Shown piece after piece: positions 13,843-42,858 of a DNA stretch of 64,000 nucleotides. Numbering within the stretch: position 1 is the stretch's first letter; every line of letters begins with the position of its first letter. The DNA is from Chitinophagales bacterium (lineage in GTDB: Bacteria; Bacteroidota; Bacteroidia; Chitinophagales; CAIOSU01): positions 26,109-90,108 of the forward strand of contig JBBDNB010000043.1 in assembly GCA_040877935.1 (NCBI GenBank), written 5' to 3'. Position numbers and translations under genes: made by a program. A model generated the notes under the pieces. That model did no database searches. It was given only the letters and a program-made list of their open reading frames with translations, and was not told the origin of the DNA.

Positions 13843-13961
13843 GGGATTTTGAAGAATAGTTCGTAGCAAGGGTGCTACGAACAGTTGTCAAAGCAGTATT
13901 TCGTAGCAGGAATAGCTGCCAGCTGTCAAATCAACCTATCCGTAGCGCCTCGCTACGGATT
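13843..13961. repeat. REP-like hairpin cluster (left flank of RAYT gene)
   Basis: Hairpin A is TTCGTAGCA-AGGG-TGCTACGAA (13860-13881). Hairpin B is CCGTAGCG-CCT-CGCTACGG (13940-13958). A GTAGCA half-site lies between them. Blocks 13843-13884 and 13921-13961 are repeated exactly at 14614-14655 and 14719-14759. Confidence 0.85.
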
Positions 13962-13980: not shown

Positions 13981-14532
13981 TTAAATAAAATCAATTTTAA
14001 TTAAACTTGGTAAGCCTGCATAAGCTCCGGCACTACTATAGATATAATCTTCTGCATTAGCTACAATTCCTGCTTTCACAGGGTTTTGGTGAATGTAATC
14101 CAGTCGCTGCTTTAATTTGATATTGTCATCCAATAGAATAGGATGGCTATCGTGTGTCCATAGTTGAAATGAATCGTTTCTTTTATGTTTGCTTGCTGCT
14201 CTTTTCATCATCCATAGTATCCATTCTTTACGACTCTCATTGCTCTGTTCGATTTCATCCTTAATTTTCTTACTGGAAAGGGATTTGATTCTGCCAATAA
14301 TGCTACTCAAATCATTTTTTGATTGAGAAGCAGAAAGGATCAGGTGGATGTGATTGCTCATAATCACATATGCATGTACTTTCAAACCTTGATTTTCCTG
14401 ATAAAAGCGCAAGAGGTCTAAAAAGATATCTCTATATGTTTGTCGGGTGAACACATCAATCCAGTAAACAACTTGAAAAGTAACAAAATAACAAGCTTTC
14501 TGATCACGTATTTTATATCCACCTTTTGACAT
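13981..14532 (-). CDS. REP-associated tyrosine transposase (RAYT; IS200/IS605 TnpA-like HUH Y1 enzyme)
   Basis: 183 aa with the HUH motif in VIMSNHIHLILS and the catalytic-Tyr helix in LDYIHQNPVKAG. It is flanked on both sides by GTAG-containing hairpins. Confidence 0.85.
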   Translation of the reverse strand: MSKGGYKIRDQKACYFVTFQVVYWIDVFTRQTYRDIFLDLLRFYQENQGLKVHAYVIMSNHIHLILSASQSKNDLSSIIGRIKSLSSKKIKDEIEQSNESRKEWILWMMKRAASKHKRNDSFQLWTHDSHPILLDDNIKLKQRLDYIHQNPVKAGIVANAEDYIYSSAGAYAGLPSLIKIDFI

Positions 14533-14585: not shown

Positions 14586-14760
14586 GGTACTACGAACAGT
14601 TGGGAAGTGAATTGGGATTTTGAAGAATAGTTCGTAGCAAGGGTGCTACGAACAGGATTTGATGAAGGTGCTACGAATCAGTTGCCAAAACATTAGTTCG
14701 TTGCGGGAATAGCTACACAGCTGTCAAATCAACCTATCCGTAGCGCCTCGCTACGGATTT
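14586..14760. repeat. REP-like hairpin cluster (right flank of RAYT gene)
   Basis: Copies of hairpin A (14631-14652) and hairpin B (14738-14756) plus CTACGAA half-sites at about 14591 and 14671. Order and orientation match the left cluster. Confidence 0.85.
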
Positions 14761-25337: not shown

Positions 25338-27431
25338 ATGAAAAGCTCTGTTGTCAGTATTGTCTGTATATATCTTAGTATTGGGATTATCTCACCTTTC
25401 AATCTTTATGCACAGAGTTTTTCAATTGGACAAAGCAGCCAAAGCATTAGTGATCCACAACGATCAAGAAATATCGATACAGAAATTTTTTATCCTGCAA
25501 CACAGCCTGGTAGCAATACCCCGTTAGCCAATGGTAATTTTCCGCTTATTGTTTTTGGTCATGGATTTTCAATGAATTTTGGTGCTTATCAGAATTTTGT
25601 GGATGAATTTGTACCAAAAGGTTTTATCCTGGTTTTTCCTAAAACGGAAGTAGGCCCAATTCCTTTTCCCGATCATGCAGCTTTTGGACAGGATTTGAGT
25701 TTTTTGACTGATTATTTCCAGGCACAGTCTACCGACCCAAATGCCTTTTTCTATCAAAAGATAAATGGTAAAACTGCTGTAATGGGACATTCTATGGGTG
25801 GTGGTTGCAGTTTTCTTGCCGCAGAGCAAAACAGCAATATTAATGTGATGGCTACTTTTGCTGCTGCCGAAACCAATGTTTCTGCAATTGCTGCTGCCCA
25901 GAACGTAAATATTCCCGCTTTGGTTTTTGCAGGTTCGGAGGACAATGTAGCACCACCTTTGGGCAATCAAATTGATATGTACAACAACCTGGCAAGCGAT
26001 TGTAAATACCTGATAACTTTAGATGGGGGCAGCCACTGTGGATTTGCCAATTCGAATGCCGCTTGTGATTTTGGTGAAACAAGTGTTTGTCTTTTTTGCA
26101 GTTTTATAAGTCGTGCAGAACAGCATTTACGCACTTTTTCGGTCTTGGGGCCTTGGCTGGATTTTCATTTAAAAACGGAGTGCAATAAATGGACGGATTT
26201 TGAACTTTCACTTCAGAACACTACCGGACTAGTGGTTCAGACAAACTGTACTTATGCATTGCCGGAAGCAAATTTTCAGGCACAAGGTGACAGTACATTT
26301 TGTTTAGGAGATTCGATTGTGCTCAATACTACTTCAACGCTTAAAAAAAAATGGTCAACGAATGATACTTCATTCAGCATCAAAACAAAAAACAGCGGCC
26401 AATATTATTTAATTGTAGAAGATCAATACGCCTGCAAAGATACCAGTAGAACTATTTCTGTTACTGTAAACCATCCGGCTGATATTGTTTTCAATTACCC
26501 GGATACTGTCTTTTGCGGAATAGATAGTATAGAATTGCAATTACTGGGAAATTACAATACCGTATCCTGGTCAGGACTTGGAGTAAATAGACTTTGGGTG
26601 AGCGAATCTGGGATATACACAGTAGAAATAACTGACAGCAACAATTGTGTAAACAAGGATTCAATTGATATAATTCTAAGTAAAGCCGATACAAATTTTT
26701 TACCGCAGTTAAGTGCCAAGCCATCAAATTTCACCTGCCCTGAAGAAAGCATTATTCTTTCTATGAGCGATACATTAGATGGGTCAGTTTTTTGGAGCAA
26801 TGGCTCAAATCAACAGGACATTAGCACTGATTCAGCAGGGATTTTCTTTGTGCAGCGGACAGATAGTTTTGGTTGCGTATATTATTCTGATAGTATTGAA
26901 GTTGGTTTCTATGATTTGCCCAATCCGCTAATAGACACTATAGCTGATTCAGTTTTTTTGGTAAATCCGGCCAATTACGGCAATATCAACTGGTATTATA
27001 ATGACAGCATTCAACTGAATCAATTTCAAAATGAGACGGCAATATTGCCCGACACAAGTGGCCTATATCAGGCTGAAGTAATTGACAGTAACGGCTGCAC
27101 TGCTTTTTCATTAGCGGTATATTTTAAATACAGTGCAACTGCTGATAGTTTAGGTGATACCACAAATGTAAGGGTGGAGGAATTAGATGAGTTTTCAATA
27201 AGGAGCAAAATTAAAATCCATCCTAACCCAGTTCAAGATCTGCTTTATATTGATGTTAAACTGGCGTATGATTTTCGCCTGGTGGATATAAGCGGACGGG
27301 TTTACAAGCAAGGGGAGCTGAAAGCCATGTCCAATATTATTGATTTACAGGAATTGCCTCAAGGGATTTATTTCCTTCAGCTTTTGTCTGATAAAAAAAT
27401 GCAAAGTTTCAAGATGCTGAAAATTTTATAG
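25338..27431 (+). CDS. secreted alpha/beta hydrolase (cutinase/dienelactone-hydrolase/PETase-like esterase) with Ig-like repeats and T9SS type A C-terminal domain
   Basis: Signal peptide. Catalytic Ser in VMGHSMGGG, Asp in FAGSEDNVAP, His in LDGGSHCGFANSN (compare PETase/cutinase GWSMGGG...D...GGSHSCANSG). Repeats of the GxYxVxVxDxNxC type. C-terminal KIHPNPVQDLLYIDV...GIYFLQL...KMLKIL. Confidence 0.75.
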   Translation: MKSSVVSIVCIYLSIGIISPFNLYAQSFSIGQSSQSISDPQRSRNIDTEIFYPATQPGSNTPLANGNFPLIVFGHGFSMNFGAYQNFVDEFVPKGFILVFPKTEVGPIPFPDHAAFGQDLSFLTDYFQAQSTDPNAFFYQKINGKTAVMGHSMGGGCSFLAAEQNSNINVMATFAAAETNVSAIAAAQNVNIPALVFAGSEDNVAPPLGNQIDMYNNLASDCKYLITLDGGSHCGFANSNAACDFGETSVCLFCSFISRAEQHLRTFSVLGPWLDFHLKTECNKWTDFELSLQNTTGLVVQTNCTYALPEANFQAQGDSTFCLGDSIVLNTTSTLKKKWSTNDTSFSIKTKNSGQYYLIVEDQYACKDTSRTISVTVNHPADIVFNYPDTVFCGIDSIELQLLGNYNTVSWSGLGVNRLWVSESGIYTVEITDSNNCVNKDSIDIILSKADTNFLPQLSAKPSNFTCPEESIILSMSDTLDGSVFWSNGSNQQDISTDSAGIFFVQRTDSFGCVYYSDSIEVGFYDLPNPLIDTIADSVFLVNPANYGNINWYYNDSIQLNQFQNETAILPDTSGLYQAEVIDSNGCTAFSLAVYFKYSATADSLGDTTNVRVEELDEFSIRSKIKIHPNPVQDLLYIDVKLAYDFRLVDISGRVYKQGELKAMSNIIDLQELPQGIYFLQLLSDKKMQSFKMLKIL

Positions 27432-27617
27432 CCTTATACTAAGTTCTATAAATATTATAAAAAATTTGTACTAAAGAATTTCTATGCTCAGTTTATTAAG
27501 AGCACTTTAATTTAGTGATTAGGCATACAACTATTTATACATGCTCCTTCGTCTTTCTATTGTTCCCAACAAACAAACAATAATATTACACGTATTCTTT
27601 GATGAGATGTTCTATTT

Positions 27618-30158
27618 TTGAACTTTCCTGTTATTTTGATATCAATATTGAGCCGCTTAATTTTTATTTTTTTATTCTGCATTGGATTAGGTCTGCATTT
27701 TTCAAGTGCTCAGATTGTAATCAGCGGCATGGTTAGTGAAGCTAAAAGTGGGGAACCCATTCCATTTTGCAATATTACAGTTCCGGGAAAATTCACTGGC
27801 ACATCAACAGATGTTGACGGGAAATTCAGTCTACAACTTAGCAAGCGCAGTGATTCTATTACCGTATCTGCGATGGGCTATAAATCTCAAACATTATCAA
27901 TAGCTAATCAAAATCCCAATAATTTAAAAATTGCTTTAGAACAGGATGAGATCAGTATTGGTGAGATAAGCGTGTCAGCAGAAATGGATCCAGCCAAAGT
28001 GCTGTTCAGGCGAATTATAAAGAATAAGGCCAATCACGATATTCACCGTTTAGATGCCATTAGCTATGAAGTTTACAATAAATATGAAGTTGATTTGCTT
28101 GATGTCACTCCTGAGGATATTCAAAAAAAGCTGATCATTTCTAAATTTCCGATACTGTCCGAGTACATAGATTCATTAGAAGATGAAAACACAACAATAT
28201 TGCCACTCTTTATGATTGAAAATATTGCAAGTATATACAAGCAGAACAATCCGCGTAAAGTTTCTGAAAAAATTCAGGGTGTAAGAGTTTCAGGTGTACA
28301 GCGCAAGGATTTTATTGCCAAACTCTTGTCTAATGTGGATCAGAATTTCAATATCTATGATAATCTGATGGTGGTATTTGGCAAAAACTTCATTAGTCCA
28401 ATTGCAGATTATGGGATGAATGTGTATCGCTACAATCTTAATGTTTACGATACATTATTCATACAGGGCGTACCTCATTTTGAAATGGAATTTGAACCCA
28501 AAAGAAAAGGAGAATATACTTTCAGAGGCAGTTTTATTGTAAATATTAAAAACTATGCTATTGCCAGTATTGAGGCTGAAATGGTGGAGGATATTAATAT
28601 TGAGCTGGTAAAGGCCCTGGAATTCAAGCTGCATTTTGCCCCTCGAATGATGCAGGTATCAAATGACAGCAGCACATTAATGTGGTTGCCCGATCGCGAA
28701 TTTATGAAAGTGAAAATGAATTATATTATTGGTGCTGAAGCCAAGATATTGGGCAAGAAAACCACAAGTTATAAGGATATTAAAATTGATGCAAGTCATA
28801 AATCAAAGGAATTCAATGCTTTTGAGGCTTCTAATATTGTTGATCAGGCCGGTGCACGTAGCGATTCATTTTGGCAAAGCAGGCGGCATATGGATTTGGA
28901 GCATAGCGAGCAGGGAATTTACGATATGGTCGATAGCCTGAAGCGTACGAGAACTTATAAAGTTTATGAATACCTGGTGCGTACCGCTACTTCAGGTTAT
29001 GTGAAATTAGGTGGAATTGGTCTTGGCGCAATTACTTCTTTAGTGAGCAGAAATGCTTTGGAAGGTTGGCGATTCAGGCTTGGATTTAAAACCAATACCG
29101 ATTTTTCCGAACGGGTTTTGCTCAGAGGATATGCAGCTTATGGCTTGCAGGATGAAAGGATTAAATATGGAGGTGAATTTCAGTTTATCATTTCAAAACG
29201 GCCCTGGAACAAGATTTCAATTTCTGCCCGGACAGATGTTGATCTGATGACACGTCATGCAGAAGAAATGGATAAGGACAATGTATTTACCATTATTCAA
29301 AAACCCAATACCCTGCAGCGGCTTTACAATATAGATGAATACAGTATTGTTTATGATACTGAATTTCATAAAGATGTAACCGCCTATTTTAGTGCACGGC
29401 ATAGGCGTATTACACCTGGGTTTGATTTTTTATACGAAAGCAATGGAGGTTTCAGCGATGAAGTTAAAATTTCGGAAGCGGGAATTGCGCTGAGGTGGCA
29501 GCACAAGTCCAGGCCATTGCCGGGCACATTCAACAGGGAAGCATCTGCCAGCAGTCTATTTGCTCAATTTAGAAAGAAGAATTCCTTTCCTGTTTTTCAT
29601 GGACGCTATACATCCGGGTTTAAAAATGTAATCAACAGTGATTTTGAATACCATGATGTAAGTGTAGGTATGCAGGGCGATGTGCGGCTCAATTCGAAAA
29701 TGTCAATGTATTACAACCTATGGGCAGGAAAGATTTATGGCACTTTGCCTTTTTTATTGCTGAAATCACCGGAGGGAAATTTTTCCTATATCCACAACAA
29801 ATACCTGTTTAACAATATGAATATACTGGAGTTTGTGGCAGATCAGTATGTCAGCTTGAATTTCCAGTATTTTATAGGCGGGTCTATTTTGGATAAAATC
29901 CCGGGGATTAAAAAATTGAAATGGCGCGAGGTACTCACAGCTAATGTTTTTTACGGGAATTTGCGTGATGAAAACAAGTACATCAATCGTTTCAATGAAT
30001 ATGATGTAGCCTATCCGGTACCCTATGTTGAGGCGGGTTTTGGTTTTGAAAATATTTTTAAAGTCATTCGCATAGATTCCATTTGGAGAATTACCCATCG
30101 CGATAAACCTCAAATTACCAATTGGGCTTTGTATTTGAGCCTGTATCTTAAAATATAG
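27618..30158 (+). CDS. CarboxypepD_reg-domain outer-membrane protein (DUF5686-like)
   Basis: TTG start. Signal/TM segment, then IVISGMVSEAKSGEPIPFCNITVPGKFTGTSTDVDGKFSL (carboxypeptidase-regulatory-like fold) followed by about 700 aa of beta-rich sequence. The DUF5686 assignment is from memory of the architecture. Confidence 0.55.
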   Translation: MNFPVILISILSRLIFIFLFCIGLGLHFSSAQIVISGMVSEAKSGEPIPFCNITVPGKFTGTSTDVDGKFSLQLSKRSDSITVSAMGYKSQTLSIANQNPNNLKIALEQDEISIGEISVSAEMDPAKVLFRRIIKNKANHDIHRLDAISYEVYNKYEVDLLDVTPEDIQKKLIISKFPILSEYIDSLEDENTTILPLFMIENIASIYKQNNPRKVSEKIQGVRVSGVQRKDFIAKLLSNVDQNFNIYDNLMVVFGKNFISPIADYGMNVYRYNLNVYDTLFIQGVPHFEMEFEPKRKGEYTFRGSFIVNIKNYAIASIEAEMVEDINIELVKALEFKLHFAPRMMQVSNDSSTLMWLPDREFMKVKMNYIIGAEAKILGKKTTSYKDIKIDASHKSKEFNAFEASNIVDQAGARSDSFWQSRRHMDLEHSEQGIYDMVDSLKRTRTYKVYEYLVRTATSGYVKLGGIGLGAITSLVSRNALEGWRFRLGFKTNTDFSERVLLRGYAAYGLQDERIKYGGEFQFIISKRPWNKISISARTDVDLMTRHAEEMDKDNVFTIIQKPNTLQRLYNIDEYSIVYDTEFHKDVTAYFSARHRRITPGFDFLYESNGGFSDEVKISEAGIALRWQHKSRPLPGTFNREASASSLFAQFRKKNSFPVFHGRYTSGFKNVINSDFEYHDVSVGMQGDVRLNSKMSMYYNLWAGKIYGTLPFLLLKSPEGNFSYIHNKYLFNNMNILEFVADQYVSLNFQYFIGGSILDKIPGIKKLKWREVLTANVFYGNLRDENKYINRFNEYDVAYPVPYVEAGFGFENIFKVIRIDSIWRITHRDKPQITNWALYLSLYLKI

Positions 30159-30159
30159 T

Positions 30160-30600
30160 ATGGAAAAACTGGAAATTGAATTGCCGGAAAAGTTTTTGTT
30201 TTCTACCGAAATGGAAGTCCGTGCCAATGATATCAATTATGCCGGACATTTGGGCAATGTACAAATCATTGGACTGCTTGATGAAGCCCGTGTACGTTTT
30301 TTCAGATGGCTTGGATATGATGAGGCCGATGTAGAAGGCAGCAGCTCTATTATGGGCGATATGTCTTGTCAATTTAAGGGAGAAGCATTTTGGGGAGATA
30401 CTTTAATTGTAGAGGTCACAATTACAGCATTTTTCTCTAAGGCTTATCGCGTTGTGTATCGTATTCGCCATGCAGATAGCGATAAAGAGGTGGCCAATGC
30501 TTTTTGTACACTGGTCACCTTTGACTATAAAAGTCGGAAGGTAGTTCCGGTGCCGGAGGCTTTTAAAAAGCGTATGGAAAAAATGCTGGAAGAATTATAA
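30160..30600 (+). CDS. hotdog-fold acyl-CoA thioesterase (4HBT/YbgC-like)
   Basis: 146 aa. VRANDINYAGHLGNVQIIGLLDEARVRFF fits the 4HBT thioesterase N-terminal pattern. The start is 1 nt after the upstream stop. Confidence 0.65.
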   Translation: MEKLEIELPEKFLFSTEMEVRANDINYAGHLGNVQIIGLLDEARVRFFRWLGYDEADVEGSSSIMGDMSCQFKGEAFWGDTLIVEVTITAFFSKAYRVVYRIRHADSDKEVANAFCTLVTFDYKSRKVVPVPEAFKKRMEKMLEEL

Positions 30601-30607
30601 TTTAAAT

Positions 30608-30970
30608 CTACTTCTTTGATTTCCATATCCATAAAGGCCAGGCGATAAATACAAATTGAATGGGAAGCCTTATATAGGCCATTGTTTTGCTGCCAATGGC
30701 AGGATTTTCAATAAATACATCGATAATGTGCAAGGGCAGAAAAGCACACATCAAAAGGAAAATTCCAAATGCGGCCATTTTTTGAAAAGCAGGAATTAAC
30801 AAACCAATACCCAACGCAATTTCTACAATACCGGTGATATAATTTACCGCCAATTTGGGAAGAAAATCCGGAATAAAAGGATTGTACATTTCAGGATTGA
30901 TAAAGTGCCCTATACCTGCAATGATCATAAATAGGGACAAAAGGAAGCTGACTATCTTTTTTATAAACAT
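30608..30970 (-). CDS. small DoxX-like membrane protein
   Basis: 120 aa with four predicted TM helices and AGIGHFINPEMY...IVEIALGIGLLIP, as in DoxX/YphA-like proteins. Confidence 0.5.
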   Translation of the reverse strand: MFIKKIVSFLLSLFMIIAGIGHFINPEMYNPFIPDFLPKLAVNYITGIVEIALGIGLLIPAFQKMAAFGIFLLMCAFLPLHIIDVFIENPAIGSKTMAYIRLPIQFVFIAWPLWIWKSKK

Positions 30971-31093
30971 TGCTCAAAGATAGGAGATATATTGTTCGAT
31001 AAAATACATTCTCAATTATTTACCGTGTTTAGCCTCAAAAGCTTTTTTAATGAGGCAGAAAATGGCTATTTTTGCAGTTCCAAATTTTAAAAT

Positions 31094-31203
31094 GGTCGCG
31101 TAGCTCAGTCCAGACGAAGCAAAGCTTGTCTGGATGCAGACATTCAGAGAATCGTCTGCATTGGATATCGCAATTTTTGATTACCGCAGGTTTTTAATCC
31201 TGC
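31094..31203 (+). pseudogene. degenerate tRNA-Arg-like copy A interrupted by two hairpins
   Basis: GGTCGCGTAGCTCAGT equals tRNA nt 1-16. Next come hairpins CCAGAC...GTCTGG (31110-31133) and ATGCAGAC...GTCTGCAT (31134-31161), then TGGATA (rest of the D-loop), then the T-arm-like GCAGG-TTTTTAAT-CCTGC (31186-31203). There is no 3' acceptor strand. Confidence 0.7.
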
Positions 31204-31214
31204 TTTGAAATATT

Positions 31215-31277
31215 GGTCGCGTAGCTCAGTTGGATACCCGCCCGTACCGAAAAGGCACGTTCGGGCGGGGAGCATCT
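31215..31277 (+). pseudogene. tRNA-Arg 5' fragment B (nt 1-30) with a 33-nt GC-rich palindrome in the D-loop
   Basis: GGTCGCGTAGCTCAGTTGGATA, then the insert at 31237-31269 (CCCGCCCGTACCGAAAAGGCACGTTCGGGCGGG), then GAGCATCT. Identity to the real gene ends in the anticodon stem. Confidence 0.85.
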
Positions 31278-31315
31278 TAAAGCATTACATTGACTATTTT
31301 AATTTTTGAAAACAT

Positions 31316-31389
31316 GGTCGCGTAGCTCAGTTGGATAGAGCATCTGCCTTCTAAGCAGACGGTCACAGGTTCGAATCCTGTCGCGATCA
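31316..31389 (+). tRNA. tRNA-Arg (anticodon TCT)
   Basis: Hand-folded cloverleaf: acceptor GGTCGCG/CGCGATC, D-arm GCTC-AGTTGGATA-GAGC, anticodon arm TCTGC-CTTCTAA-GCAGA, variable loop CGGTC, T-arm ACAGG-TTCGAAT-CCTGT, discriminator A. 74 nt, no encoded CCA. Confidence 0.95.
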
Positions 31390-31393
31390 CGAA

Positions 31394-31425
31394 AAGGCTT
31401 CACAAGTGTGGAGCCTTTTTTATTT
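31394..31425 (+). terminator. rho-independent terminator after tRNA-Arg
   Basis: AAGGCTTCAC/GTGGAGCCTT stem followed by a T-run. Confidence 0.7.
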
Positions 31426-31457
31426 TATAATTTGAGTGAATTTATTTCTTGAAAACC

Positions 31458-31520
31458 GCAGACGGTCACAGGTTCCCCGCCCGAACGCATTCAGGCGGGC
31501 GGGGAATCCTGTCGCGATCA
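31458..31520 (+). pseudogene. tRNA-Arg 3' fragment C (nt 39-74) with a 28-nt GC-rich palindrome in the T-loop
   Basis: GCAGACGGTCACAGGTTC, then the insert at 31476-31503 (CCCGCCCGAACGCATTCAGGCGGGCGGG), then GAATCCTGTCGCGATCA. A second terminator-like hairpin follows (31523-31557). Confidence 0.85.
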
Positions 31521-31562
31521 CAAAGCCTTCCAAGAAATTGGAGGGCTTTTTTGTTTTTCAAA

Positions 31563-31586
31563 CCCAAGGGGTCATGACCCCTTGGG
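31563..31586. repeat. perfect 24-nt palindrome CCCAAGGGGTCATGACCCCTTGGG
   Basis: Every position pairs with its mirror position. It lies in the non-coding tRNA-island junction. Confidence 0.9.
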
Positions 31587-31668
31587 GAAGGGGAATCCAG
31601 CAGTGCCCACATAGAATGGGAAAGCTTTACAGGATTTGGAGGTTTTTTTGTTTTTGGGCTATTAGGCA

Positions 31669-31737
31669 TTACTTTTTTCTGATAGTTTCCTTTAGGTCAT
31701 CACCCAAGCGTGTATTTACATTGTCGATTAGTTTCAT
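31669..31737 (-). pseudogene. 22-codon remnant resembling the N-terminus of PLD-nuclease/helicase defense proteins
   Basis: Hand translation gives MKLIDNVNTRLGDDLKETIRKK then a stop. MKLIDN....L...L...I is the N-terminal pattern I recall for PLD-domain helicase-associated proteins. Homology stops where the tRNA-flank sequence begins. Confidence 0.3.
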
Positions 31738-31743
31738 AGTGTA

Positions 31744-31997
31744 TCAGCCAAAATATTTTTCTTCATCACTCAGTTCCTTAATCAAGTGAGTGCAATTTCT
31801 TTCTTCTGCCCATCTACAGGTAGACTTCCAACGATCACCTTTTTCAAAGTCAGAGCTAAAGTTCCAACCTGCGAGAATCAAAGGCGTTGGCGGTTTTCAC
31901 CTTTTGATTCAAGTTCTTGCTTACAATAATTATCTAATGTCTGGTGTATTTCATGCCAAACTTTAGGAATAGGTGATATAAACTCCTTGTTATACAT
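31744..31997 (-). pseudogene. small conserved-looking ORF with a frameshift, translationally coupled to res
   Basis: The ATG overlaps the res stop (TAATG). Frame a reads MYNKEFISPIPKVWHEIHQTLDNYCKQELESKGEN and stops at 31878-31880. A second frame continues PPTPLILAGWNFSSDFEKGDRWKSTCRWAEERNCTHLIKELSDEEKYFG to the stop at 31744. The total of 254 nt is not a multiple of 3. Confidence 0.5.
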
Positions 31998-34900
31998 TAA
32001 CTCAATTGTACAATATCCATCAGCTTTTCATAGCTGCTTACTTTCTCAAATTTAACTTCTGCACCACTTATCTCATTAAAATGGACTTTGGCGCATTCAA
32101 TTTTTAGCTTCTCGATCTCTCTCAAGTCCATATCCGAATCAGAACCTTTGGTTTCTGCAACGAAGTAGATATGTCGGACTTTGTCCTTGTCAAAGACTAT
32201 CGCCCAATCCGGACTGTAATTGGCAACTGGTGTGGAAATATAGAAGCTTTTAGGAAGCTTGGCATAGACCACTACTTCGGTGCTGTTTTCTAAGGCTGTA
32301 GCAAAGTCCGATTCAATTTTAGAGTCGGAAGTAAGGAAGTCGTAAATGTGCTTTTTGAGAAATTCAGACTTGCGCAAAGCAAATTTATCATTGGTAAAAA
32401 CCGTTTTGACATCATGCCTTTCTTCAGTTTTGTGATAAACAATATTGTTGATTATCAGGCTTGCCTTCACTTCATTGATCAGCTTGCTGCATTTGCCAAT
32501 AAACTCTTCAGGATTCTTACGAATGAGCAGGAACTTCTCTTGCTTAATCTTCTTGAGTATCTCTACAATGGTTTTTCTTGTGAGGTTGGTTTGCACTTCA
32601 ATTTCACCCACCACATCATACACTGTATTGGAATAGAGGTCGTTTTTCAGTTTCATGTACTGACGTTTGGACTCACGTACCAAGCTGCCTTCTTTCATTT
32701 GCTCTGCTGTACCGTCTTCTAATTCTCCTGTCTTTATTTCATATACACGATCTCCAATATTGAGCTGCGCATCTATTCTGATTTTTGAATCTTGAATGAG
32801 CTGCTCTGTATCGAACTGTACTTCGTAAATGGTTTTCAGGTTTATTTTTTCCCAAAGTGCCTGAAACTCCTTTTTTGAAAAGTTCTTGTTGGTATTGAGA
32901 ATTACAGTTTGGCGTTCATCTTCAGGTTTAAACTCCTTTCCTGTATAGACCGATGTCAGCAATTTGCAAATTGAGGTTCTATAAGGCTCAAGCTGTTCGG
33001 GTAGAGGCACTTTGTTTTGTTCGATAAGTTCTTTTCCTTCATCGGTTACCTTGCCATTGGCATCCGCTACCCTCTCAAATAAAAGAGTGTTGTTCAGCAA
33101 AGTAGCTTCCAGCTCGTCTATTCGGTGTTCATCCCCCTTTTCGTTCGTTACTACTTTATTGATAAATATTCGAGCCTCAATTTTTTGCGGACGGTCTTTG
33201 AGGGTATCTGCAATTTCTTTTTGTAGTCCTTTGGCAAAGGCTTCATAAGTCTCGGAAGCAATGACGGTGAGTTTATTAATTTCATGTACTCGTTCTCCTA
33301 CTAATCCAAAATCCTGACGGACACCGTGGTTATTTACACAAAGGCGCATGCCGCGACCTACTTCTTGTCTGCGCCTGGTTAGGCTTCCACTTTCAGAGTG
33401 TTTGAGGGCGCAGATTTGGAATACATTCGGGTTGTCCCAACCTTCTTTCAATGCTGAATGAGAGAATATAAAGCGGGTTGGTTCTTCAAAACTGAGCAAC
33501 CTTTCCTTATTCTTCATTATCAGGTTATAAGCTGAAACATCTTCTGAATCTTCCTTGCCACGTTTCACAGTAGGATCTACAGTTTTTCCTTTTTTATCTA
33601 TTGAAAAATAACCATCATGTACTTTTTTAGGAGTATCACGCATAAGGTATTTGTCATATAGAGGCATTGTCATGTCGCGTTCTTCTTCACGGATTTTAGC
33701 ATATTCTTCTTCAAATATTTTGGCGTATTCGCCCAATTGCTGTTCCCCTAATTCATCATAAACACGGTATTTCTCTACGGTATCAATAAAGAAGAGAGAA
33801 AGCACCTTTATGCCCTGGCCAAAAAGCTGCTTTTCTTTTTGCAAATGAGAAAGGATGCATTCCCTTATCTGCACCCTGCGGAAAGCATGTTCATCTTTAT
33901 CATTAAGAATATCTCCTGGAAAAACATCCTGACCCCCAACCACTATCTTATTTAGATAGCCATTAATTTCGGTTATTGTTTGATTCTTGTATGCAGGCAT
34001 ATTTCCTGAATGCTCATAAATGTTGTAGCCTTCAGCAACCTTTATCCGCTTTTTGGTAATGGAACCGGAAGCCGTTCGTTTTTCATGTTCTATTAATGCA
34101 TAAGGTGGTTTTGTGGTACTCAGAATGATATTTTCTAAATACATATATCCCGTTGTACCTGTTGAACCTTTTAGGTTAATACCCTTTACTTGTATTTTCT
34201 TCACCAAGCGTTTGTTGTAGGCATCTAATGCATCGAGGCGATAAATCTTATTGTATTCAATTTTGTGGGTAGCTGAATAACGTAACGTGAAAAGTGCATT
34301 AAAGTCCTGCATACTCTTTAAGGTCTTTTCACCTTCTACTGATTGTGGCTCATCCACTATTAAGATTGGGTTAGTCTCTGCTATAATTTCAATAGGCTTA
34401 CGTGTGCCAAACTGGTCTAATTCCTGATAGATACGTCTTGCATCTTTACCACGCGCATTGAATGCCTGTGTATTGATAATCATGACACTGATACGGCTGT
34501 CAGAAGCGAAGTTCTCAATATCCTGCGGGCGGCCTGAATTATATATGAAAGGATTGATCTTGTGCCCATAGAGTTCCTGAAAGTGGTCCTGTGTAATCTG
34601 AAAGGATTTGTACACCCCTTCACGAATAGCAATGCTGGGCACAATGACAATGAACTTACTCCAACCGTATTTTTTATGCAGCTCGTACATGGTCCGGATA
34701 TAGGTATAGGTTTTACCAGTACCTGTTTCCATTTCAATGGTGAGGTTGTATCCCAAATTCACACCATTAGGGCGTTCAATTTTCTTGCTTTCATGAAGGT
34801 CATTCTGTTTTTGGACTTCCTGAATGTTTTTGAGCATTTGTTCATCCCAATTTTTAGGAAGTTCAGAATTTCGATAACCAATTTCTTTTTCTATTTCAAA

Positions 34901-35065
34901 GTCTAAGCTTTGAATTCCCATAGCTGCTTGCTTAGCTTTGCGAATGAGTTCCTTACTACGCTCTAAGGTGAAGTGATTGGTTTTTAGTGGTTGCCCTTCA
35001 AAACAATCTACTACAGCCTGAACCGCCTTTATCTGAAAGTCTTGTTCTTTAAACTGTAGTTTCAT
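31997..35065 (-). CDS. res: Type III restriction endonuclease Res subunit (SF2 helicase + C-terminal PD-(D/E)xK nuclease)
   Basis: 1022 aa. Walker A METGTGKTYTY, DExx box LIVDEPQS, helicase motif VI RRRQEVGRGMRL, and a C-terminal nuclease core YSPDWAIVF...IYFVAETKG. Confidence 0.9.
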   Translation of the reverse strand: MKLQFKEQDFQIKAVQAVVDCFEGQPLKTNHFTLERSKELIRKAKQAAMGIQSLDFEIEKEIGYRNSELPKNWDEQMLKNIQEVQKQNDLHESKKIERPNGVNLGYNLTIEMETGTGKTYTYIRTMYELHKKYGWSKFIVIVPSIAIREGVYKSFQITQDHFQELYGHKINPFIYNSGRPQDIENFASDSRISVMIINTQAFNARGKDARRIYQELDQFGTRKPIEIIAETNPILIVDEPQSVEGEKTLKSMQDFNALFTLRYSATHKIEYNKIYRLDALDAYNKRLVKKIQVKGINLKGSTGTTGYMYLENIILSTTKPPYALIEHEKRTASGSITKKRIKVAEGYNIYEHSGNMPAYKNQTITEINGYLNKIVVGGQDVFPGDILNDKDEHAFRRVQIRECILSHLQKEKQLFGQGIKVLSLFFIDTVEKYRVYDELGEQQLGEYAKIFEEEYAKIREEERDMTMPLYDKYLMRDTPKKVHDGYFSIDKKGKTVDPTVKRGKEDSEDVSAYNLIMKNKERLLSFEEPTRFIFSHSALKEGWDNPNVFQICALKHSESGSLTRRRQEVGRGMRLCVNNHGVRQDFGLVGERVHEINKLTVIASETYEAFAKGLQKEIADTLKDRPQKIEARIFINKVVTNEKGDEHRIDELEATLLNNTLLFERVADANGKVTDEGKELIEQNKVPLPEQLEPYRTSICKLLTSVYTGKEFKPEDERQTVILNTNKNFSKKEFQALWEKINLKTIYEVQFDTEQLIQDSKIRIDAQLNIGDRVYEIKTGELEDGTAEQMKEGSLVRESKRQYMKLKNDLYSNTVYDVVGEIEVQTNLTRKTIVEILKKIKQEKFLLIRKNPEEFIGKCSKLINEVKASLIINNIVYHKTEERHDVKTVFTNDKFALRKSEFLKKHIYDFLTSDSKIESDFATALENSTEVVVYAKLPKSFYISTPVANYSPDWAIVFDKDKVRHIYFVAETKGSDSDMDLREIEKLKIECAKVHFNEISGAEVKFEKVSSYEKLMDIVQLS

Positions 35066-36693
35066 TTTTCTTCTATTAGATCTATTAATTTCATTCCTGA
35101 GTCAGTGATTTTATATCGTTGTTTGGGATGAGTTGGAGTATCGGGGTATTCCATTGTTATCCAACCTATCTCAATCAGCGGATCTAAATACTTCTTTCTA
35201 TTAATCGTTTGGTTACTTAGGTTCATCTTTTCGAATAACTCTTCTCTTTTAATCCACCGTTTAGTAATATCAAGAACTTCTAGTACTCTACTATGAACTT
35301 CTTCATTAATTATAGCTCGAGCTTGGTCACTAGCTCCGTTAGTAGCTCCGTTAGTAGCTCCGTTAGTAGCTCCGTTACTAAAACTAACTATGTCTTCTAA
35401 ATCTTTAAATTTGAACACATTAGCTTGGTCACTAGCTTGGTCACTAGCTTGGTCATTCAGATGAGCAGAAAGGGTAACAAGTACATAACTAGCATCATCT
35501 GTTTCAAAAGAGGGTTCAGAAGAACCATTGGCTTCCAAAGCACCATAAATAGAAGGGAAGCCTGTCCCTCTTCCTTCAGTGAGTTTTAATTCTTTCAGAA
35601 AATCTCCGATTCTCCGATTCCTATATTCTCGAGCTATAATTCTTTTCTGGGTCGAAAGAACTTCACCGTTTACAGGAGGAACCGGTCCCGGATGACTCAA
35701 AATGGTCATTTTATCGGGAAACACTTGGATCTCAATTGGGGCAACATGCTCATAGCTTTTATGATATACCGCATTAGACAAAACTTCCTCAATTGCTTCG
35801 AATGGATAATTGAAAAAACGTTCTGACTCTGCTTTGTTAGCGTGTTTATTGACTTGTTCGGAAATTATGTTGCTCTTGATATAGGAAAGAGTCTCCCTCA
35901 ATTGCTTATGTAAGGGGCCTTTGAAATAGACTTCTTTAAAATTCTTTCCCGAATCATCTTTATGACGTACCAATTCAATCCATGCCCTATCAAAAAACCG
36001 TTCAGGTTTTTTAGAGAAAAATAACAAGCCAACATTCACTGGTCTCACATCTTCATTCGGACCTTTGGCAATGAGCATGGTTTTACACAAGTCAGCAAAT
36101 GGCATGTGAGCACTTTCTTCAAGTAAACCACTTTTGATTTCCTGAAGGTATTCGCGGATAAGCCCTAAGTCTAAGTCATCAAGAGAGGCTTGATTATTTA
36201 TTCTATCATCAAAAGGAATTCGAGCGGCTAACTCTTGAAGTTTTCTAAGGTTTTCTCCTTGAGCTATAATGCTTGTTGAGCCTACACGCACATAATGTCG
36301 TCTTTGAGCTCCATTCCCAAGAGTTGTTGGAGCTGTATAGGGCCGATTATCACCGGCAGGACACCAAAGTACCAAAACAAGTTGCCCTTCTAGCTCATAG
36401 GGTGCTGTAATTGGAAAGTAGGTTGGATTAATTCTATGACCTAGTTGAACGACTTCTCCTTGAATAGCATCTAATTGATTTCGTTGTAATCCTACTGGAG
36501 GAAGAACGGGTTGACCATTTTCTTCAGCAACACCAACGATTATATATCCACCTCCCCAATTTTGTAGATCATTGGCAAAAGCACACATGGAATGAATTAC
36601 ATCCTCGGGGTTCCACCCCTGCTTAAACTCTAAGCGCTCCCACTCAACGGTATTGCCATGTATCAACTCCTCTATGTTTACCGGTAAGGCCAT
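35062..36693 (-). CDS. AlbA_2 (Schlafen-like divergent AAA) + HATPase_c_4 + C-terminal wHTH-like protein embedded between mod and res
   Basis: N-terminal EWERLEFKQGWNPEDVIHSMCAFANDLQNWGGGYIIVGV (AlbA_2 pattern). Central EEVLSNAVYHKSYEHVAPIEIQVFPDKMTILSHPGP (HATPase_c_4 pattern). It has a 4-nt ATGA overlap with the res start and a 2-nt gap after the mod stop. Confidence 0.8.
   Translation of the reverse strand: MALPVNIEELIHGNTVEWERLEFKQGWNPEDVIHSMCAFANDLQNWGGGYIIVGVAEENGQPVLPPVGLQRNQLDAIQGEVVQLGHRINPTYFPITAPYELEGQLVLVLWCPAGDNRPYTAPTTLGNGAQRRHYVRVGSTSIIAQGENLRKLQELAARIPFDDRINNQASLDDLDLGLIREYLQEIKSGLLEESAHMPFADLCKTMLIAKGPNEDVRPVNVGLLFFSKKPERFFDRAWIELVRHKDDSGKNFKEVYFKGPLHKQLRETLSYIKSNIISEQVNKHANKAESERFFNYPFEAIEEVLSNAVYHKSYEHVAPIEIQVFPDKMTILSHPGPVPPVNGEVLSTQKRIIAREYRNRRIGDFLKELKLTEGRGTGFPSIYGALEANGSSEPSFETDDASYVLVTLSAHLNDQASDQASDQANVFKFKDLEDIVSFSNGATNGATNGATNGASDQARAIINEEVHSRVLEVLDITKRWIKREELFEKMNLSNQTINRKKYLDPLIEIGWITMEYPDTPTHPKQRYKITDSGMKLIDLIEEK
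35321..35377. repeat. in-frame 12-nt tandem repeat AGCTCCGTTAGT x3.8 (encodes NGAT x4), preceded by one GCTTGGTCACTA unit
   Basis: Units at 35332-35343, 35344-35355 and 35356-35367, plus a partial unit to 35377. A single copy of the other repeat unit abuts at 35321-35332. Confidence 0.95.
35421..35455. repeat. in-frame 12-nt tandem repeat TAGCTTGGTCAC x2.9 (encodes DQAS x3)
   Basis: Units at 35421-35432 and 35433-35444, plus a partial unit to 35455. Confidence 0.95.
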
Positions 36694-36695
36694 TA

Positions 36696-42496: not shown

Positions 42497-42858
42497 ATTG
42501 AAAAATGCAAATGAGTTATTCCGGCTAAATCACAGTTTAGGTAGTCGTGCTTCAGTATTCACAGCGATTTTAGCTGCTTTTTCCAGTGTTAAAAAACTTA
42601 AATTTTTCGGAAGGGCTCAAAATGTGTCGGTGCACTAAGGCTCACTTTGCTTGAAAAATCAAGCTTCATATTGATATACTTGTGTTTTTGTGGTGAAAAT
42701 TTCTCGGAAAACCACAAAATGTGTTCGGTAATTTCTTCTTTTATTCTTTTATAATCACCTAATAATTAGTGTAATTCACTTGTGTAAAAAATAGATAAAA
42801 ATATTTTTTGCGATGATTAATGTTTAAAATTCATTTTTTAATAAAAAAAGGAGAAATT

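What the first reader, a model, noticed from the sequence alone, without database searches (positions are those of the whole stretch)
31094..31586. tRNA-Arg(TCT) hotspot: one intact gene nested among three tRNA-derived fragments, each split by tiny palindromic inserts
Seen directly:
- The intact tRNA is at 31316-31389.
- Fragment B (31215-31277) reproduces tRNA nt 1-22. A 33-nt GC-rich palindrome (31237-31269) then sits exactly in the D-loop, tRNA nt 23-30 follow, and homology stops in the anticodon stem.
- Fragment C (31458-31520) resumes at the 3' anticodon-stem arm and runs to the discriminator base. It carries a 28-nt palindrome (31476-31503) exactly in the T-loop.
- The two inserts share 8-nt termini (CCCGCCCG...CGGGCGGG) and a 12-nt arm (CCCGCCCGAACG) in opposite orientations, so they look like one family of miniature hairpin elements.
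- B plus C add up to one tRNA lacking only the anticodon loop. The functional gene and its own terminator lie between them.
- A third, decayed copy A (31094-31203) has tRNA nt 1-16, two other hairpins, the rest of the D-loop and a T-arm-like hairpin.
- Two extra terminator copies and a perfect 24-nt palindrome (31563-31586) follow.

Inference: either repeated integration/excision at anticodon-loop and T-loop sublocations (a known preference of tyrosine integrases), or a hairpin-targeting miniature element comparable to Rickettsia RPEs or mitochondrial GC clusters. I know of no described element that matches this one.
Basis: partly seen in the sequence, partly recalled or inferred. Interest (0 to 1): 0.7.

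Follow-up and report, generated by a model that had tools for sequence, protein, structure and literature searches.

The report
Hairpin-capped tRNA relics around tRNA-Arg
One working tRNA-Arg gene is flanked by broken tRNA copies whose loops carry GC-rich palindromes, and the same layout recurs in many Bacteroidota, in every case I checked next to tiny GIY-YIG nuclease genes, so this looks like a decayed member of an undescribed tRNA-linked selfish module.

Summary
One intact tRNA-Arg(TCT) (31316-31389) has two 5' fragments upstream (A, B) and two 3' fragments downstream (C, D). Each fragment is interrupted in a D- or T-loop by a stable palindrome. The inserts in A, B and C are exact, with no tRNA base lost or duplicated. 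A second assembler reproduces both halves.

The locus is not unique. In three orders of Bacteroidota, partial tRNA copies (Arg-TCT, Arg-ACG, Val-TAC, Pro-TGG) sit beside the working gene, 5' pieces upstream and 3' pieces downstream. Their D-loop, anticodon arm or T-loop is replaced or split by CCCG...CGGG-clamped palindromes. The T-loop ones follow GGTTC, exactly as in fragment C.

All nine small GIY-YIG genes (83-94 aa) I examined lie beside such a copy, and eight read into one. Hairpin B aligns with the D-loop insert of one such module (0 of 2000 shuffles). Another Chitinophagales genome uses the same CCCGCCC stem.

The window has no GIY-YIG or integrase gene. My best reading is a decayed relic of this nuclease-linked, tandemly amplifying tRNA module; the closest known analogue is phage T4 SegB. 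How the palindromes arise is unresolved.

The parts
31067..31074 (+). TATTTTTG, a match to the Bacteroidota -7 promoter box (TAnnTTTG), 19 nt upstream of fragment A. This would be the likely promoter of the whole array.
   Evidence: Read. The consensus is from my own knowledge. In typical loci of the same tRNA this box sits just upstream of the tRNA; where 5' fragments exist (L030, L076, L129, L133) it sits upstream of the outermost fragment. Inferred, not tested.
31094..31109 (+). Fragment A, tRNA nt 1-16
   Evidence: 100% BLAST match
31110..31133 (.). Palindrome A1, CCAGAC...GTCTGG, inserted in the D-loop between nt 16 and 17
   Evidence: DNA fold -7.0 kcal/mol, z = -3.7
31134..31161 (.). 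Palindrome A2, ATGCAGAC...GTCTGCAT, directly abutting A1
   Evidence: DNA fold -8.5 kcal/mol, z = -5.2
31162..31167 (+). Fragment A continued, tRNA nt 17-22 (TGGATA)
   Evidence: Read. Continues nt 16 exactly.
31185..31203 (+). Decayed T-arm-like hairpin CGCAGGTTTTTAATCCTGC. It is closer to a tRNA-Pro T-arm than to the Arg one.
   Evidence: 17 of 19 identical to a Pro T-arm against 14 of 16 to Arg
31215..31236 (+). Fragment B, tRNA nt 1-22
   Evidence: 100% BLAST match
31237..31269 (.). Palindrome B (33 nt, CCCGCCCG...CGGGCGGG) at the boundary of the D-loop and the D-stem
   Evidence: Aligns 20 of 28 with the D-loop insert of a GIY-YIG-linked pseudo-tRNA-Arg in Aequorivita (L132); 0 of 2000 shuffles reach that score.
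31270..31277 (+). Fragment B continued, tRNA nt 23-30. Homology ends in the anticodon stem.
   Evidence: Read
31316..31389 (+). Intact tRNA-Arg(TCT). It holds the only GGTTCRANTCC T-loop motif in the window (31368-31378).
   Evidence: Identical 74-mer in 87 species representatives, nearly all Flavobacteriales.
31391..31420 (+). Intrinsic terminator of the intact gene
31458..31475 (+). Fragment C, tRNA nt 40-57, ending at GGTTC
   Evidence: 100% BLAST match
31476..31503 (.). Palindrome C (28 nt) at the centre of the T-loop TTC|GAA. It splits the GGTTCGAATCC motif.
   Evidence: Same site as the T-loop palindromes in L059, L117, L118, L120, L122, L123 and L134.
31504..31520 (+). Fragment C continued, tRNA nt 58-74
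   Evidence: 100% BLAST match
31522..31549 (+). Second terminator copy, after fragment C
31563..31586 (.). Perfect 24-nt palindrome D, CCCAAGGGGTCATGACCCCTTGGG
   Evidence: z = -4.5
31593..31611 (+). Fragment D: T-loop 3' half, T-stem 3' strand and acceptor 3' strand of a tRNA-Val(TAC)-like gene
   Evidence: 16-17 of 19 identical to Val-TAC 3' ends of other Bacteroidota; only GAATCC is shared with the Arg gene
31621..31655 (+). Third, decayed terminator copy
   Evidence: Similar by eye to the terminator after fragment C. Not called by the scan.

Best explanation
The locus is a decayed, nuclease-less member of a recurrent Bacteroidota arrangement. In that arrangement a functional tRNA gene sits at the centre of short tandem duplications whose breakpoints lie in the tRNA loops. 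This leaves 5' pieces upstream and 3' pieces downstream. The disabled copies carry GC-clamped palindromes in, or instead of, their D-loop, anticodon arm and T-loop.

**Shown.**
- The arrangement recurs in three orders and for several tRNA identities.
- The palindromes share a CCCG...CGGG design and fixed positions.
- All nine examined members of a family of GIY-YIG-domain-only genes (83-94 aa) lie beside such a capped pseudo-tRNA, and eight read straight into one.
- These units are tandemly repeated, and the copy number differs between close relatives.
- Hairpin B is homologous to the D-loop insert of one such module.

**Inferred.**
- The nuclease, or a relative acting in trans, breaks tRNA-gene DNA at or near the loops. 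Phage T4 SegB does this at the T-loop motif GGTTCRANTCC.
- Repair between tRNA-derived repeats duplicates segments.
- The palindromes travel with the disabled copies. They destroy the loop motifs and cut the uninterrupted homology to the live gene to 22 nt or less. As a result the copies are neither cut again, nor used as tRNAs, nor easily recombined away.
- In this window the nuclease gene has been lost, or was never linked, and only the fragments remain.

The step that creates or transfers the palindromes is not explained.
For: **Recurrence of the layout.** The exact tRNA occurs in 87 species representatives. All 4 head fragments lie upstream and all 8 tail fragments lie downstream of it.

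**Palindromes at the same sites elsewhere**:
- Anticodon arm, as T-CCCG..CGGG-A: L030, L075, L076, L090, L117, L120, L122, L123, L125-L130, L132, L133, L134.
- T-loop, directly after GGTT(C/T): L059, L117, L118, L120, L122, L123, L134.
- D-loop: L057, L075, L130, L132.
- In AT-rich loci totalling 633 kb, 12 of 32 non-terminator GC hairpins lie within 400 nt of a tRNA gene, and all 12 sit inside tRNA-derived pieces.

**Link to the nuclease.** The proteins are a Pfam GIY-YIG domain only, from a family of at least 222 clusters. Eight of the nine examined genes read into a capped pseudo-tRNA: L076, L117, L125-129, L130, L131, L132, L133 and L135. In L134 the gene stops at its own TAA and the capped copy starts directly after it.

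**Tandem units.** 2-3 identical units occur in L130-L133. There are 4 tail units in L059 and 8 in L118, and one versus two in L129 and L127.

**Direct ties to the window.**
- Hairpin B against the L132 D-loop insert: 20 of 28 identical, 0 of 2000 shuffles reach that score.
- The CCCGCCC..GGGCGGG stem is used by another Chitinophagales MAG.
- Hairpin C is at the same GGTTC| site as the others.
- The canonical promoter box lies upstream of the outermost head, as in other loci.

**Precedent.**
- SegB recognises GGTTCRANTCC in tRNA genes (PMC2330249).
- SegB drives tandem amplification of a tRNA + segB unit, in which the 3' end of segB becomes joined to the 5' end of the tRNA (PMC13096335).
- In the window that motif survives only in the intact gene.
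Against: - No GIY-YIG homologue or remnant is present in the 64 kb window.
- Only 1 of the 87 tRNA-anchored loci has a GIY-YIG gene within the stretch of up to 8 kb that was fetched. Among the loci with capped fragments that were found without using the gene as a query, only L076 and L117 carry one. The gene may therefore insert next to capped copies rather than make them.
- The 83-94 aa proteins have no DNA-binding domain. Their activity and target are unknown. They are related to SegB only at the level of the catalytic domain.
- The functional tRNA keeps all native loop motifs, so 'immunity' of the disabled copies does not by itself make the locus safe from such a nuclease.
- The window inserts are exact insertions with long loops (12-17 nt). 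Most relatives instead show replacements with 3-7 nt loops.
- The GC-rich sequence of the palindromes is not derived from flanking DNA, so simple break repair does not produce them.
Confidence: 0.5

Rival explanations
1. The fragments are att-site relics of serial integration by tyrosine-integrase elements. On this reading, each fragment is a displaced piece of the tRNA gene left by integrations at the anticodon-loop and T-loop sublocations. The islands were later deleted, and the palindromes are unrelated later insertions or integrase-binding inverted repeats.
For: - Integrase genes lie 230-300 nt downstream of the identical tRNA in 12 of 87 loci.
- Many loci have nt 59-74 tails with terminator copies, and arm-type direct repeats just after the terminator.
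- A 4.1 kb insertion in L103 is bounded by the tRNA and a 12-nt tail.
- A Type III restriction-modification island lies directly downstream in the window.
- Arrays of partial tRNAs from repeated integration are documented for tycheposons (10.1101/2020.12.28.424599).
Against: - No integrase is present in the window.
- Fragments lie about 70-100 nt from the gene with nothing between them.
- The 5' fragments lie upstream and include copies of the 5' flank (L117, L123).
- Precise excision would erase such repeats, not leave them.
- The same palindrome replaces the anticodon arm in Arg-TCT, Arg-ACG and Val-TAC copies whatever element is nearby.
- Loop lengths of 0-17 nt do not fit a fixed 6-8 bp crossover region.
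Confidence: 0.17
2. The palindromes are an autonomous, hairpin-targeting miniature element. On this reading they are themselves mobile units that insert into, or swap with, the loops and arms of tRNA-gene DNA folded as hairpins. Insertions survive only in redundant tRNA copies. The GIY-YIG genes are bystanders or the mobilising enzyme.
For: - The window inserts are exact, with no target duplication or loss.
- Palindromes at different loops of one locus resemble each other: both CCCGCCCGAACG in the window, both CCGAT in L120.
- The same cap, including its closing T-A pair, is found in copies of different tRNAs, even where the native tRNA has a C at that position (L130, L133).
- Inner stem pairs co-vary, so the palindrome is kept perfect.
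Against: - There are no copies outside tRNA-derived sequence in 64 kb plus about 680 kb.
- CCCGCCCG...CGGGCGGG-type matches in viral contigs are generic GC-rich hairpins, mostly in GC-rich contigs.
- No known transposase is associated.
- Most cases are replacements of a whole arm, not insertions.
- No empty-versus-filled pair of otherwise identical sites was found.
Confidence: 0.2
3. The fragments are functional tRNA-like RNAs. On this reading the capped copies are selected as RNA: for example leader or trailer structures that guide processing of the tRNA precursor, or a structure that limits expression of the GIY-YIG mRNA it overlaps. The loops are replaced by inert caps so that the RNA is neither charged nor decoded.
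For: - Stems are kept by compensatory changes across orders.
- The promoter box lies upstream of the head fragments, so they would be transcribed with the tRNA.
- Some copies keep the acceptor stem, D-arm and T-arm intact (L123, L130, L133).
- The ORF stop codon lies inside the tRNA-like part.
Against: - The window fragments are truncated and cannot form a cloverleaf.
- Copy number varies between close relatives.
- Several palindromes are perfect through their centre (24-mer D in the window; L120, L134, L117), which selection on RNA stems alone does not require.
- No Rfam family matches.
Confidence: 0.1
4. The arrangement is an assembly artefact, created by mis-joining reads from repeated tRNA sequence.
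For: Short-read contigs break inside or just before the array.
Against: - Two independent Logan contigs reproduce fragments A and B, and fragments C and D, base for base.
- The only unspanned point is inside the intact tRNA.
- The same architecture is seen in complete genomes: CP158861, CP034951, CP028923.
Confidence: 0.03

Closest known systems
Phage T4/T6 SegB, a free-standing GIY-YIG homing endonuclease in the tRNA gene cluster (PMC2330249, PMC13096335)
   Same: - A GIY-YIG gene sits next to tRNA genes.
- Its recognition site is the conserved T-loop motif GGTTCRANTCC, the very motif that hairpin C splits and at which several head fragments end.
- It drives tandem amplification of a tRNA + nuclease unit, in which the nuclease 3' end becomes joined to the tRNA 5' end. 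This matches the ORFs here that read into tRNA nt 1-21.
   Different: - SegB is a larger phage protein. The Bacteroidota genes are chromosomal and consist of the catalytic domain only.
- No palindromes or disabled tRNA copies are described for SegB.
- The window itself has no nuclease gene.
- Activity of the small proteins is untested.
Arrays of partial tRNAs left by integrative elements, such as tycheposons (10.1101/2020.12.28.424599), and sublocation preference of tRNA-targeting integrases (Williams 2002, from my own knowledge)
   Same: - Partial tRNA copies lie next to an intact tRNA at a variable island.
- tRNA-Arg(TCT) is one of the tycheposon targets.
- Integrases are common at this tRNA in relatives.
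   Different: - Here the fragments are adjacent, with no element between them.
- They include 5' pieces upstream.
- They carry loop palindromes.
- No integrase is present in the window.
Mobile GIY-YIG ORFs in fungal mitochondria that bring a replacement gene end and displace the resident one, such as Allomyces atp6 (from my own knowledge)
   Same: A nuclease ORF is inserted in an essential gene. A functional copy is supplied, and the displaced piece is left beside it as a pseudogene.
   Different: Those cases involve protein-coding genes in organelles and have no palindromic caps.
Short palindromic repeat families: REP/BIME, Rickettsia RPE, yeast mitochondrial GC clusters (from my own knowledge)
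   Same: They are short GC-rich palindromes in AT-rich DNA, kept perfect by co-variation, and sometimes found in tandem arrays after genes.
   Different: Those families are dispersed through the genome. The palindromes here are confined to loops of tRNA-derived sequence.
Archaeal non-canonical tRNA introns and split tRNAs (from my own knowledge)
   Same: Short inserts in D- and T-loops, and halves of a tRNA encoded apart.
   Different: - The host here is bacterial.
- I saw no bulge-helix-bulge motif.
- The fragments are incomplete, and an intact gene is present.
- This is a resemblance only.

Membership tests
Functional bacterial tRNA gene | Cloverleaf with an anticodon, detected by covariance model | tested here: met
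   31316-31389: ARAGORN calls Arg(TCT) and Rfam RF00005 scores 73.8 bits. None of the fragments is called.
GIY-YIG-linked capped pseudo-tRNA array (the class defined here) | Heads upstream and tails downstream of one intact tRNA, with terminator copies | tested here: met
   A and B lie upstream, C and D downstream, with three terminator copies. Same geometry in L076, L117, L123, L129, L133 and L134.
GIY-YIG-linked capped pseudo-tRNA array (the class defined here) | CCCG...CGGG-clamped palindrome in the D-loop, anticodon arm or T-loop, the T-loop one directly after GGTTC | tested here: met
   B (D-loop) and C (after GGTTC) both have CCCGCCCG...CGGGCGGG. B is homologous to the L132 insert. However, A1, A2 and D have other stems, and no fragment in the window retains an anticodon arm.
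GIY-YIG-linked capped pseudo-tRNA array (the class defined here) | Adjacent GIY-YIG-only ORF (83-94 aa) that reads into the capped copy | tested here: not met
   tblastn of two family members against the window finds nothing, even at E = 1 for the whole window and E = 100 around the locus.
SegB-type homing endonuclease locus | SegB-like protein with nuclease and DNA-binding parts | tested here: not met
   No such gene in the window. In related loci the proteins are a GIY-YIG domain only, with no solved homologue by sequence.
SegB-type homing endonuclease locus | Target motif GGTTCRANTCC present in the tRNA gene and disrupted in the immune copy | tested here: inconclusive
   The motif occurs once in the window, in the intact gene. 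It is split in C and absent from A, B and D. Whether any enzyme here uses it is unknown.
Integrase att-site relic array (tycheposon-like, or prophage and integrative conjugative element relics) | Tyrosine or serine recombinase gene next to the tRNA | tested here: not met
   No hit in the window with two integrases taken from relatives. The Pfam scans of 18 large ORFs between 21214 and 56099 show none.
Integrase att-site relic array (tycheposon-like, or prophage and integrative conjugative element relics) | Island bounded by the intact tRNA and a direct repeat of its 3' part | tested here: not met
   C lies 68 nt after the gene with only a terminator between them. There is no further tRNA repeat beyond the restriction-modification island.
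REP/RAYT palindromes | Many dispersed copies, a conserved GTAG head and a RAYT transposase | tested here: not met
   There are no other copies in 64 kb and no GTAG head. A different GTAGC-type palindrome family does exist at 13859-13960 and 14630-14758.
Rickettsia RPE or mitochondrial GC-cluster type elements | Dispersed insertion into many unrelated sites, including coding genes | tested here: not met
   The palindromes are confined to tRNA-derived sequence in the window and in about 680 kb of related loci. The whole source genome was not available.
Archaeal bulge-helix-bulge (BHB) introns and split tRNA | Bulge-helix-bulge motif at the insert boundaries and a splicing endonuclease | not tested
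   The host is a Chitinophagales bacterium. I saw no such motif by eye, and the fragments are incomplete. No formal search was made.

The most novel reading that the evidence does not exclude
The CCCG...CGGG palindromes and the minimal GIY-YIG nucleases together form a new kind of structure-guided mobile system. A nuclease of the Slx1/YhbQ type would cut tRNA-gene DNA folded as a cloverleaf (a natural four-way junction) at the base or tip of its arms. Whole hairpin arms would then be swapped for the element's own palindromes. This would disable one tRNA copy while the element supplies or duplicates a working one, and would let the module spread between tRNA genes and between orders of bacteria.
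Probability: 0.15. Interest if true: 0.9.

Novelty: new variant of a known kind. Interest (0 to 1): 0.7.

Why it matters
tRNA genes are the classic landing sites for mobile DNA, and the debris around them is usually dismissed as att-site scars. Here the debris has a regular grammar:
- 5' pieces lie upstream and 3' pieces downstream.
- Loops are capped by one family of palindromes.
- A minimal nuclease gene was found beside a capped copy in every one of the nine cases examined, and reads into it in eight.

This grammar is shared across three orders of Bacteroidota and several tRNA identities.

If the link to the nuclease is causal, three things follow:
- It would be a chromosomal counterpart of the SegB-driven tRNA amplification recently shown in phages.
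- It would assign a role to the very large, uncharacterised family of stand-alone GIY-YIG proteins.
- It would explain why short-read assemblies of these bacteria break at tRNA genes.

The identity of this tRNA between a Chitinophagales genome and many Flavobacteriales also hints that working tRNA genes travel with the module.

Tried and rejected
- **Orthologous locus through flanking genes.** The thioesterase next to the array has only 11 homologues, and relatives at 71-80% identity lack the DoxX-like gene and any tRNA at that place. No empty-site comparison was possible.
- **Hairpin pattern in viral contigs.** CCCGCCCGAACG-N5-20-CGGGCGGG gave 20 hits. They are generic GC-rich hairpins, mostly in GC-rich contigs, and are uninformative. 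For that reason I ran no further search on this pattern.
- **Interrupted-tRNA patterns in viral contigs.** No hits. One hit for the anticodon-arm cap, at the edge of a predicted provirus, again sits next to a GIY-YIG gene.
- **BLAST of the array against phage genomes.** Only ordinary tRNA matches.
- **Rfam at relaxed threshold.** Nothing matches the fragments.
- **TCCCGAC as an integrase arm site.** This 7-mer appears as direct repeats at both ends of the L103 insertion. It is not rare enough (41 observed against 25 expected) to carry weight.
- **GIY-YIG remnant in 31587-32000.** None found. That stretch holds a frameshifted small ORF of another kind.
- **Literature.** I found no description of capped pseudo-tRNAs, or of this GIY-YIG and tRNA arrangement, in Bacteroidota.
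Full report
**1. What is in the window**

The 64 kb window has one tRNA gene, tRNA-Arg(TCT), at 31316-31389. It lies between a small DoxX/MauE-like gene (30608-30970, minus strand) and a Type III restriction-modification cluster. That cluster comprises res at 31997-35065, an AlbA_2/HATPase_c_4 gene at 35062-36693, and mod at 36696-38738. The flanking genes have T9SS sorting domains and DUF5686. The thioesterase next door is annotated in NCBI as coming from a Chitinophagales MAG, on a 266,785-bp contig.

- Fragment A is tRNA nt 1-16, two abutting palindromes, then nt 17-22.
- Fragment B is nt 1-22, a 33-nt palindrome, then nt 23-30.
- Fragment C is nt 40-57, a 28-nt palindrome, then nt 58-74.
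- The inserts in A, B and C are exact: no tRNA base is lost or repeated.
- A perfect 24-nt palindrome follows the terminator of C.

Further checks:
- All five palindromes fold much better than shuffled sequence.
- CCCGCCCG occurs only in the four arms of the B and C inserts, 4 times against 0.39 expected.
- None of the palindromes has another copy in the 64 kb.
- Two contigs made by a different assembler from SRR27977662 are identical to 27381-31359 and 31361-35360. Both halves are reproduced, and only the join inside the intact tRNA is unconfirmed.

- The tail after the 24-nt palindrome (31593-31611) is Val-TAC-like, not Arg-like.
- The T-arm-like hairpin of A is Pro-like.

**2. The locus is one of many**

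The exact 74-nt tRNA is present in 87 species representatives. Nearly all are Flavobacteriales, which is odd for a Chitinophagales host. In those loci, extra pieces of the tRNA are common. All four 5' pieces lie upstream of the intact gene, and all eight 3' pieces lie downstream, usually with a copy of the terminator.

Several pieces carry GC-rich palindromes in the loops:
- Anticodon arm replaced by CCCGAC-N5-7-GTCGGG: L030, L075, L076 (twice), L090.
- D-loop palindromes: L057, L075.
- T-loop palindrome directly after GGTTC: L059.

A metagenome scan for any 10-40 nt insert after CACAGGTTC gave five more real cases:
- Among them is a duplicated two-tRNA operon (L123). In its second copy, both the Arg-TCT and the Arg-ACG genes have their anticodon arm and their T-loop capped.
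- tRNA-Pro-derived pieces show the same thing with a different stem (L040, L058, L081).

In these AT-rich loci GC hairpins are otherwise rare. Of 32 non-terminator GC hairpins in 633 kb, 12 lie within 400 nt of a tRNA gene, and all 12 sit inside tRNA-derived pieces.

A systematic listing shows a common design:
- The stems begin with CCCG and end with CGGG.
- The anticodon-arm caps are closed by a T-A pair.
- The inner pairs differ between lineages but always stay complementary: GAC/GTC, GAT/ATC, GAG/CTC, GGC/GCC, CCC/GGG.
- The Chitinophagales variant (L125-L129) is CCCGCCC...GGGCGGG, the stem used in the window.

**3. The link to small GIY-YIG genes**

In L076 and L117 a small ORF lies between the terminator of the intact tRNA and a capped 3' pseudo-tRNA. 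Its stop codon is the TAG of the D-loop GGATAG. The protein is a GIY-YIG catalytic domain and nothing else. It belongs to a family of at least 222 clusters in Flavobacteriia, Cytophagia, Lewinellaceae and Chitinophagales.

I looked up six further members, and one more turned up in a viral-contig scan. Each of the seven sits right after a functional tRNA or a tRNA-derived copy. Six read into a capped pseudo-tRNA; in the seventh (L134) the gene stops at its own TAA and the capped copy starts directly after it. The units are often repeated in tandem:

| Locus | Organism | Arrangement |
|---|---|---|
| L131 | Flavobacterium anhuiense | Arg, two units |
| L132 | Aequorivita | Arg, two units |
| L130 | Lewinellaceae | Val, three units |
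| L133 | Mangrovivirga | Val, three identical units plus a capped head |
| L134 | Mongoliibacter | Val, two heads and a tail with both anticodon-arm and T-loop caps |
| L125-L129 | Chitinophagales | Val |
| L135 | Provirus edge | - |

- Unit number differs between close relatives: 4 in L059 and 8 in L118, and one versus two in L129 and L127.
- In L127 the stretch before the extra tails looks by eye like a decayed 3' end of the nuclease ORF. This suggests how tails without a gene could arise.

Two direct ties connect the window to these modules:
- Hairpin B aligns 20 of 28 with the D-loop insert of L132, at the same place in the same tRNA. No shuffle out of 2000 reaches that score.
- Hairpin C occupies the same GGTTC| site as the T-loop caps.

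The window itself has no GIY-YIG gene or remnant. Only 1 of the 87 tRNA-anchored loci has one within the stretch of up to 8 kb that was fetched. In my sample the gene always sits beside capped copies, but capped copies often lack the gene.

**4. How it may work**

The closest studied system is SegB of T-even phages:
- It is a GIY-YIG endonuclease encoded among tRNA genes.
- It recognises the T-loop motif GGTTCRANTCC and cuts within tRNA genes (PMC2330249).
- It was recently shown to drive tandem amplification of a tRNA + segB unit. In that unit the 3' end of segB is trimmed through microhomology with the 5' end of the tRNA (PMC13096335).

The Bacteroidota arrays look like fixed versions of that process:
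- The units consist of a tRNA and a nuclease gene, with the ORF running into the tRNA.
- Head fragments end at or near GGTTC in the T-loop (L056, L075, L076; L090 two bases earlier).
- The T-loop motif is destroyed in the tails.
- In the window the motif survives only in the intact gene.

A tandem duplication with one breakpoint inside the tRNA and the other outside always gives 5' pieces upstream or 3' pieces downstream, and leaves exactly one intact gene. That is the observed geometry.

The palindromes would travel with the disabled copies. In the window they leave no stretch of uninterrupted identity to the live gene longer than 22 nt. This should hinder recombination with it, and they also remove the loops that tRNA enzymes read. 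These last points are inference.

Three things remain unexplained:
- How a palindrome comes to replace an arm so exactly.
- How the same cap reached copies of different tRNAs.
- What spares the working gene.

**5. Rivals**

- **Integrase scars.** They fit the context: an integrase is present in 12 of 87 loci, and partial tRNA arrays are known for tycheposons (10.1101/2020.12.28.424599). They do not fit the adjacency, the upstream heads with copied flanks, or the caps.
- **A free-living palindromic element.** It fits the exact inserts and the sharing of caps between tRNA identities. It does not fit the absence of copies elsewhere.
- **A selected tRNA-like RNA.** It fits the co-variation and the promoter position. 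It does not fit the truncated, variable fragments, or the palindromes that are perfect through their centre.
- **Misassembly.** This is very unlikely.

**6. Verdict**

The locus is best filed as a nuclease-less relic of a widespread, apparently undescribed tRNA-linked module of Bacteroidota. The module combines SegB-like segmental amplification with a conserved family of loop-capping palindromes.

My confidence differs by level of claim:
- That the locus belongs to this class: about 0.8.
- The full statement, including a causal role of the nuclease: about 0.5.
- The proposed role of the palindromes: lower still.

Literature searches found no prior description, but the library searched is incomplete.

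Noticed in passing
window 13859-13960 and 14630-14758: A second, unrelated family of intergenic palindromes with a CGTAGC core (GTTCGTAGCAagggTGCTACGAAC and ATCCGTAGCGcctCGCTACGGAT). It occurs as identical pairs on both sides of a 183-aa ORF (13981-14532, minus strand). The family looks REP-like, with a GTAG motif.
   Followed up: partly
window 31316-31389 against L029-L115: The tRNA-Arg(TCT) of this Chitinophagales MAG is 100% identical over 74 nt to that of 87 species representatives, almost all Flavobacteriales. This suggests the tRNA, perhaps with its array, was transferred between orders.
   Followed up: partly
window 31700-31997, minus strand: A frameshifted small ORF (MYNKEFISPIPKVWHEIHQTL... 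continuing in another frame as ...PPTPLILAGWNFSSDFEKGDRWKSTCRWAEERNC...), plus a stranded N-terminus (MKLIDNVNTRLGDDLKETIRKK*), between the array and the res gene. These look like gene debris at the edge of the restriction-modification island.
   Followed up: no
window 31997-38738: A Type III restriction-modification cluster with a gene for an AlbA_2 (Schlafen-type) + HATPase_c_4 + winged-helix protein inserted between res and mod. It lies directly downstream of the tRNA array, and no integrase is present.
   Followed up: partly
L131 (Flavobacterium anhuiense CP158861), locus positions 1188-2258: The repeated unit carries a second, different tRNA-Arg(TCT), with other acceptor and anticodon stems, in front of each GIY-YIG gene. 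The capped pseudo-copy is derived from the first tRNA-Arg. The module therefore brings its own variant tRNA.
   Followed up: partly
L103 (Psychroflexus curvus), both ends of a 4.1 kb insertion after the tRNA: The 20-nt sequence TTCCCGACATCTTCCCGACA is present at both ends of the insertion. It contains the 7-mer TCCCGAC twice, the same 7-mer that forms the anticodon-arm caps. This may be a protein-binding site, but the 7-mer is not rare enough to say so.
   Followed up: partly
L106, L041 and L107, downstream of tRNA-Arg or tRNA-Pro: Tandem arrays of 51-140 nt units, each holding a T-arm-like hairpin with an expanded loop (CAGGAT...AATCCTG) and a small GC hairpin (CAGCGCggaGCGCTG). There are at least 7 copies in L106.
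   Followed up: no
window 43840-44622: A 738-bp internal direct repeat inside the 1347-aa T9SS-secreted protein gene (42820-46863). It was seen as duplicated long-loop inverted repeats in the hairpin scan.
   Followed up: no
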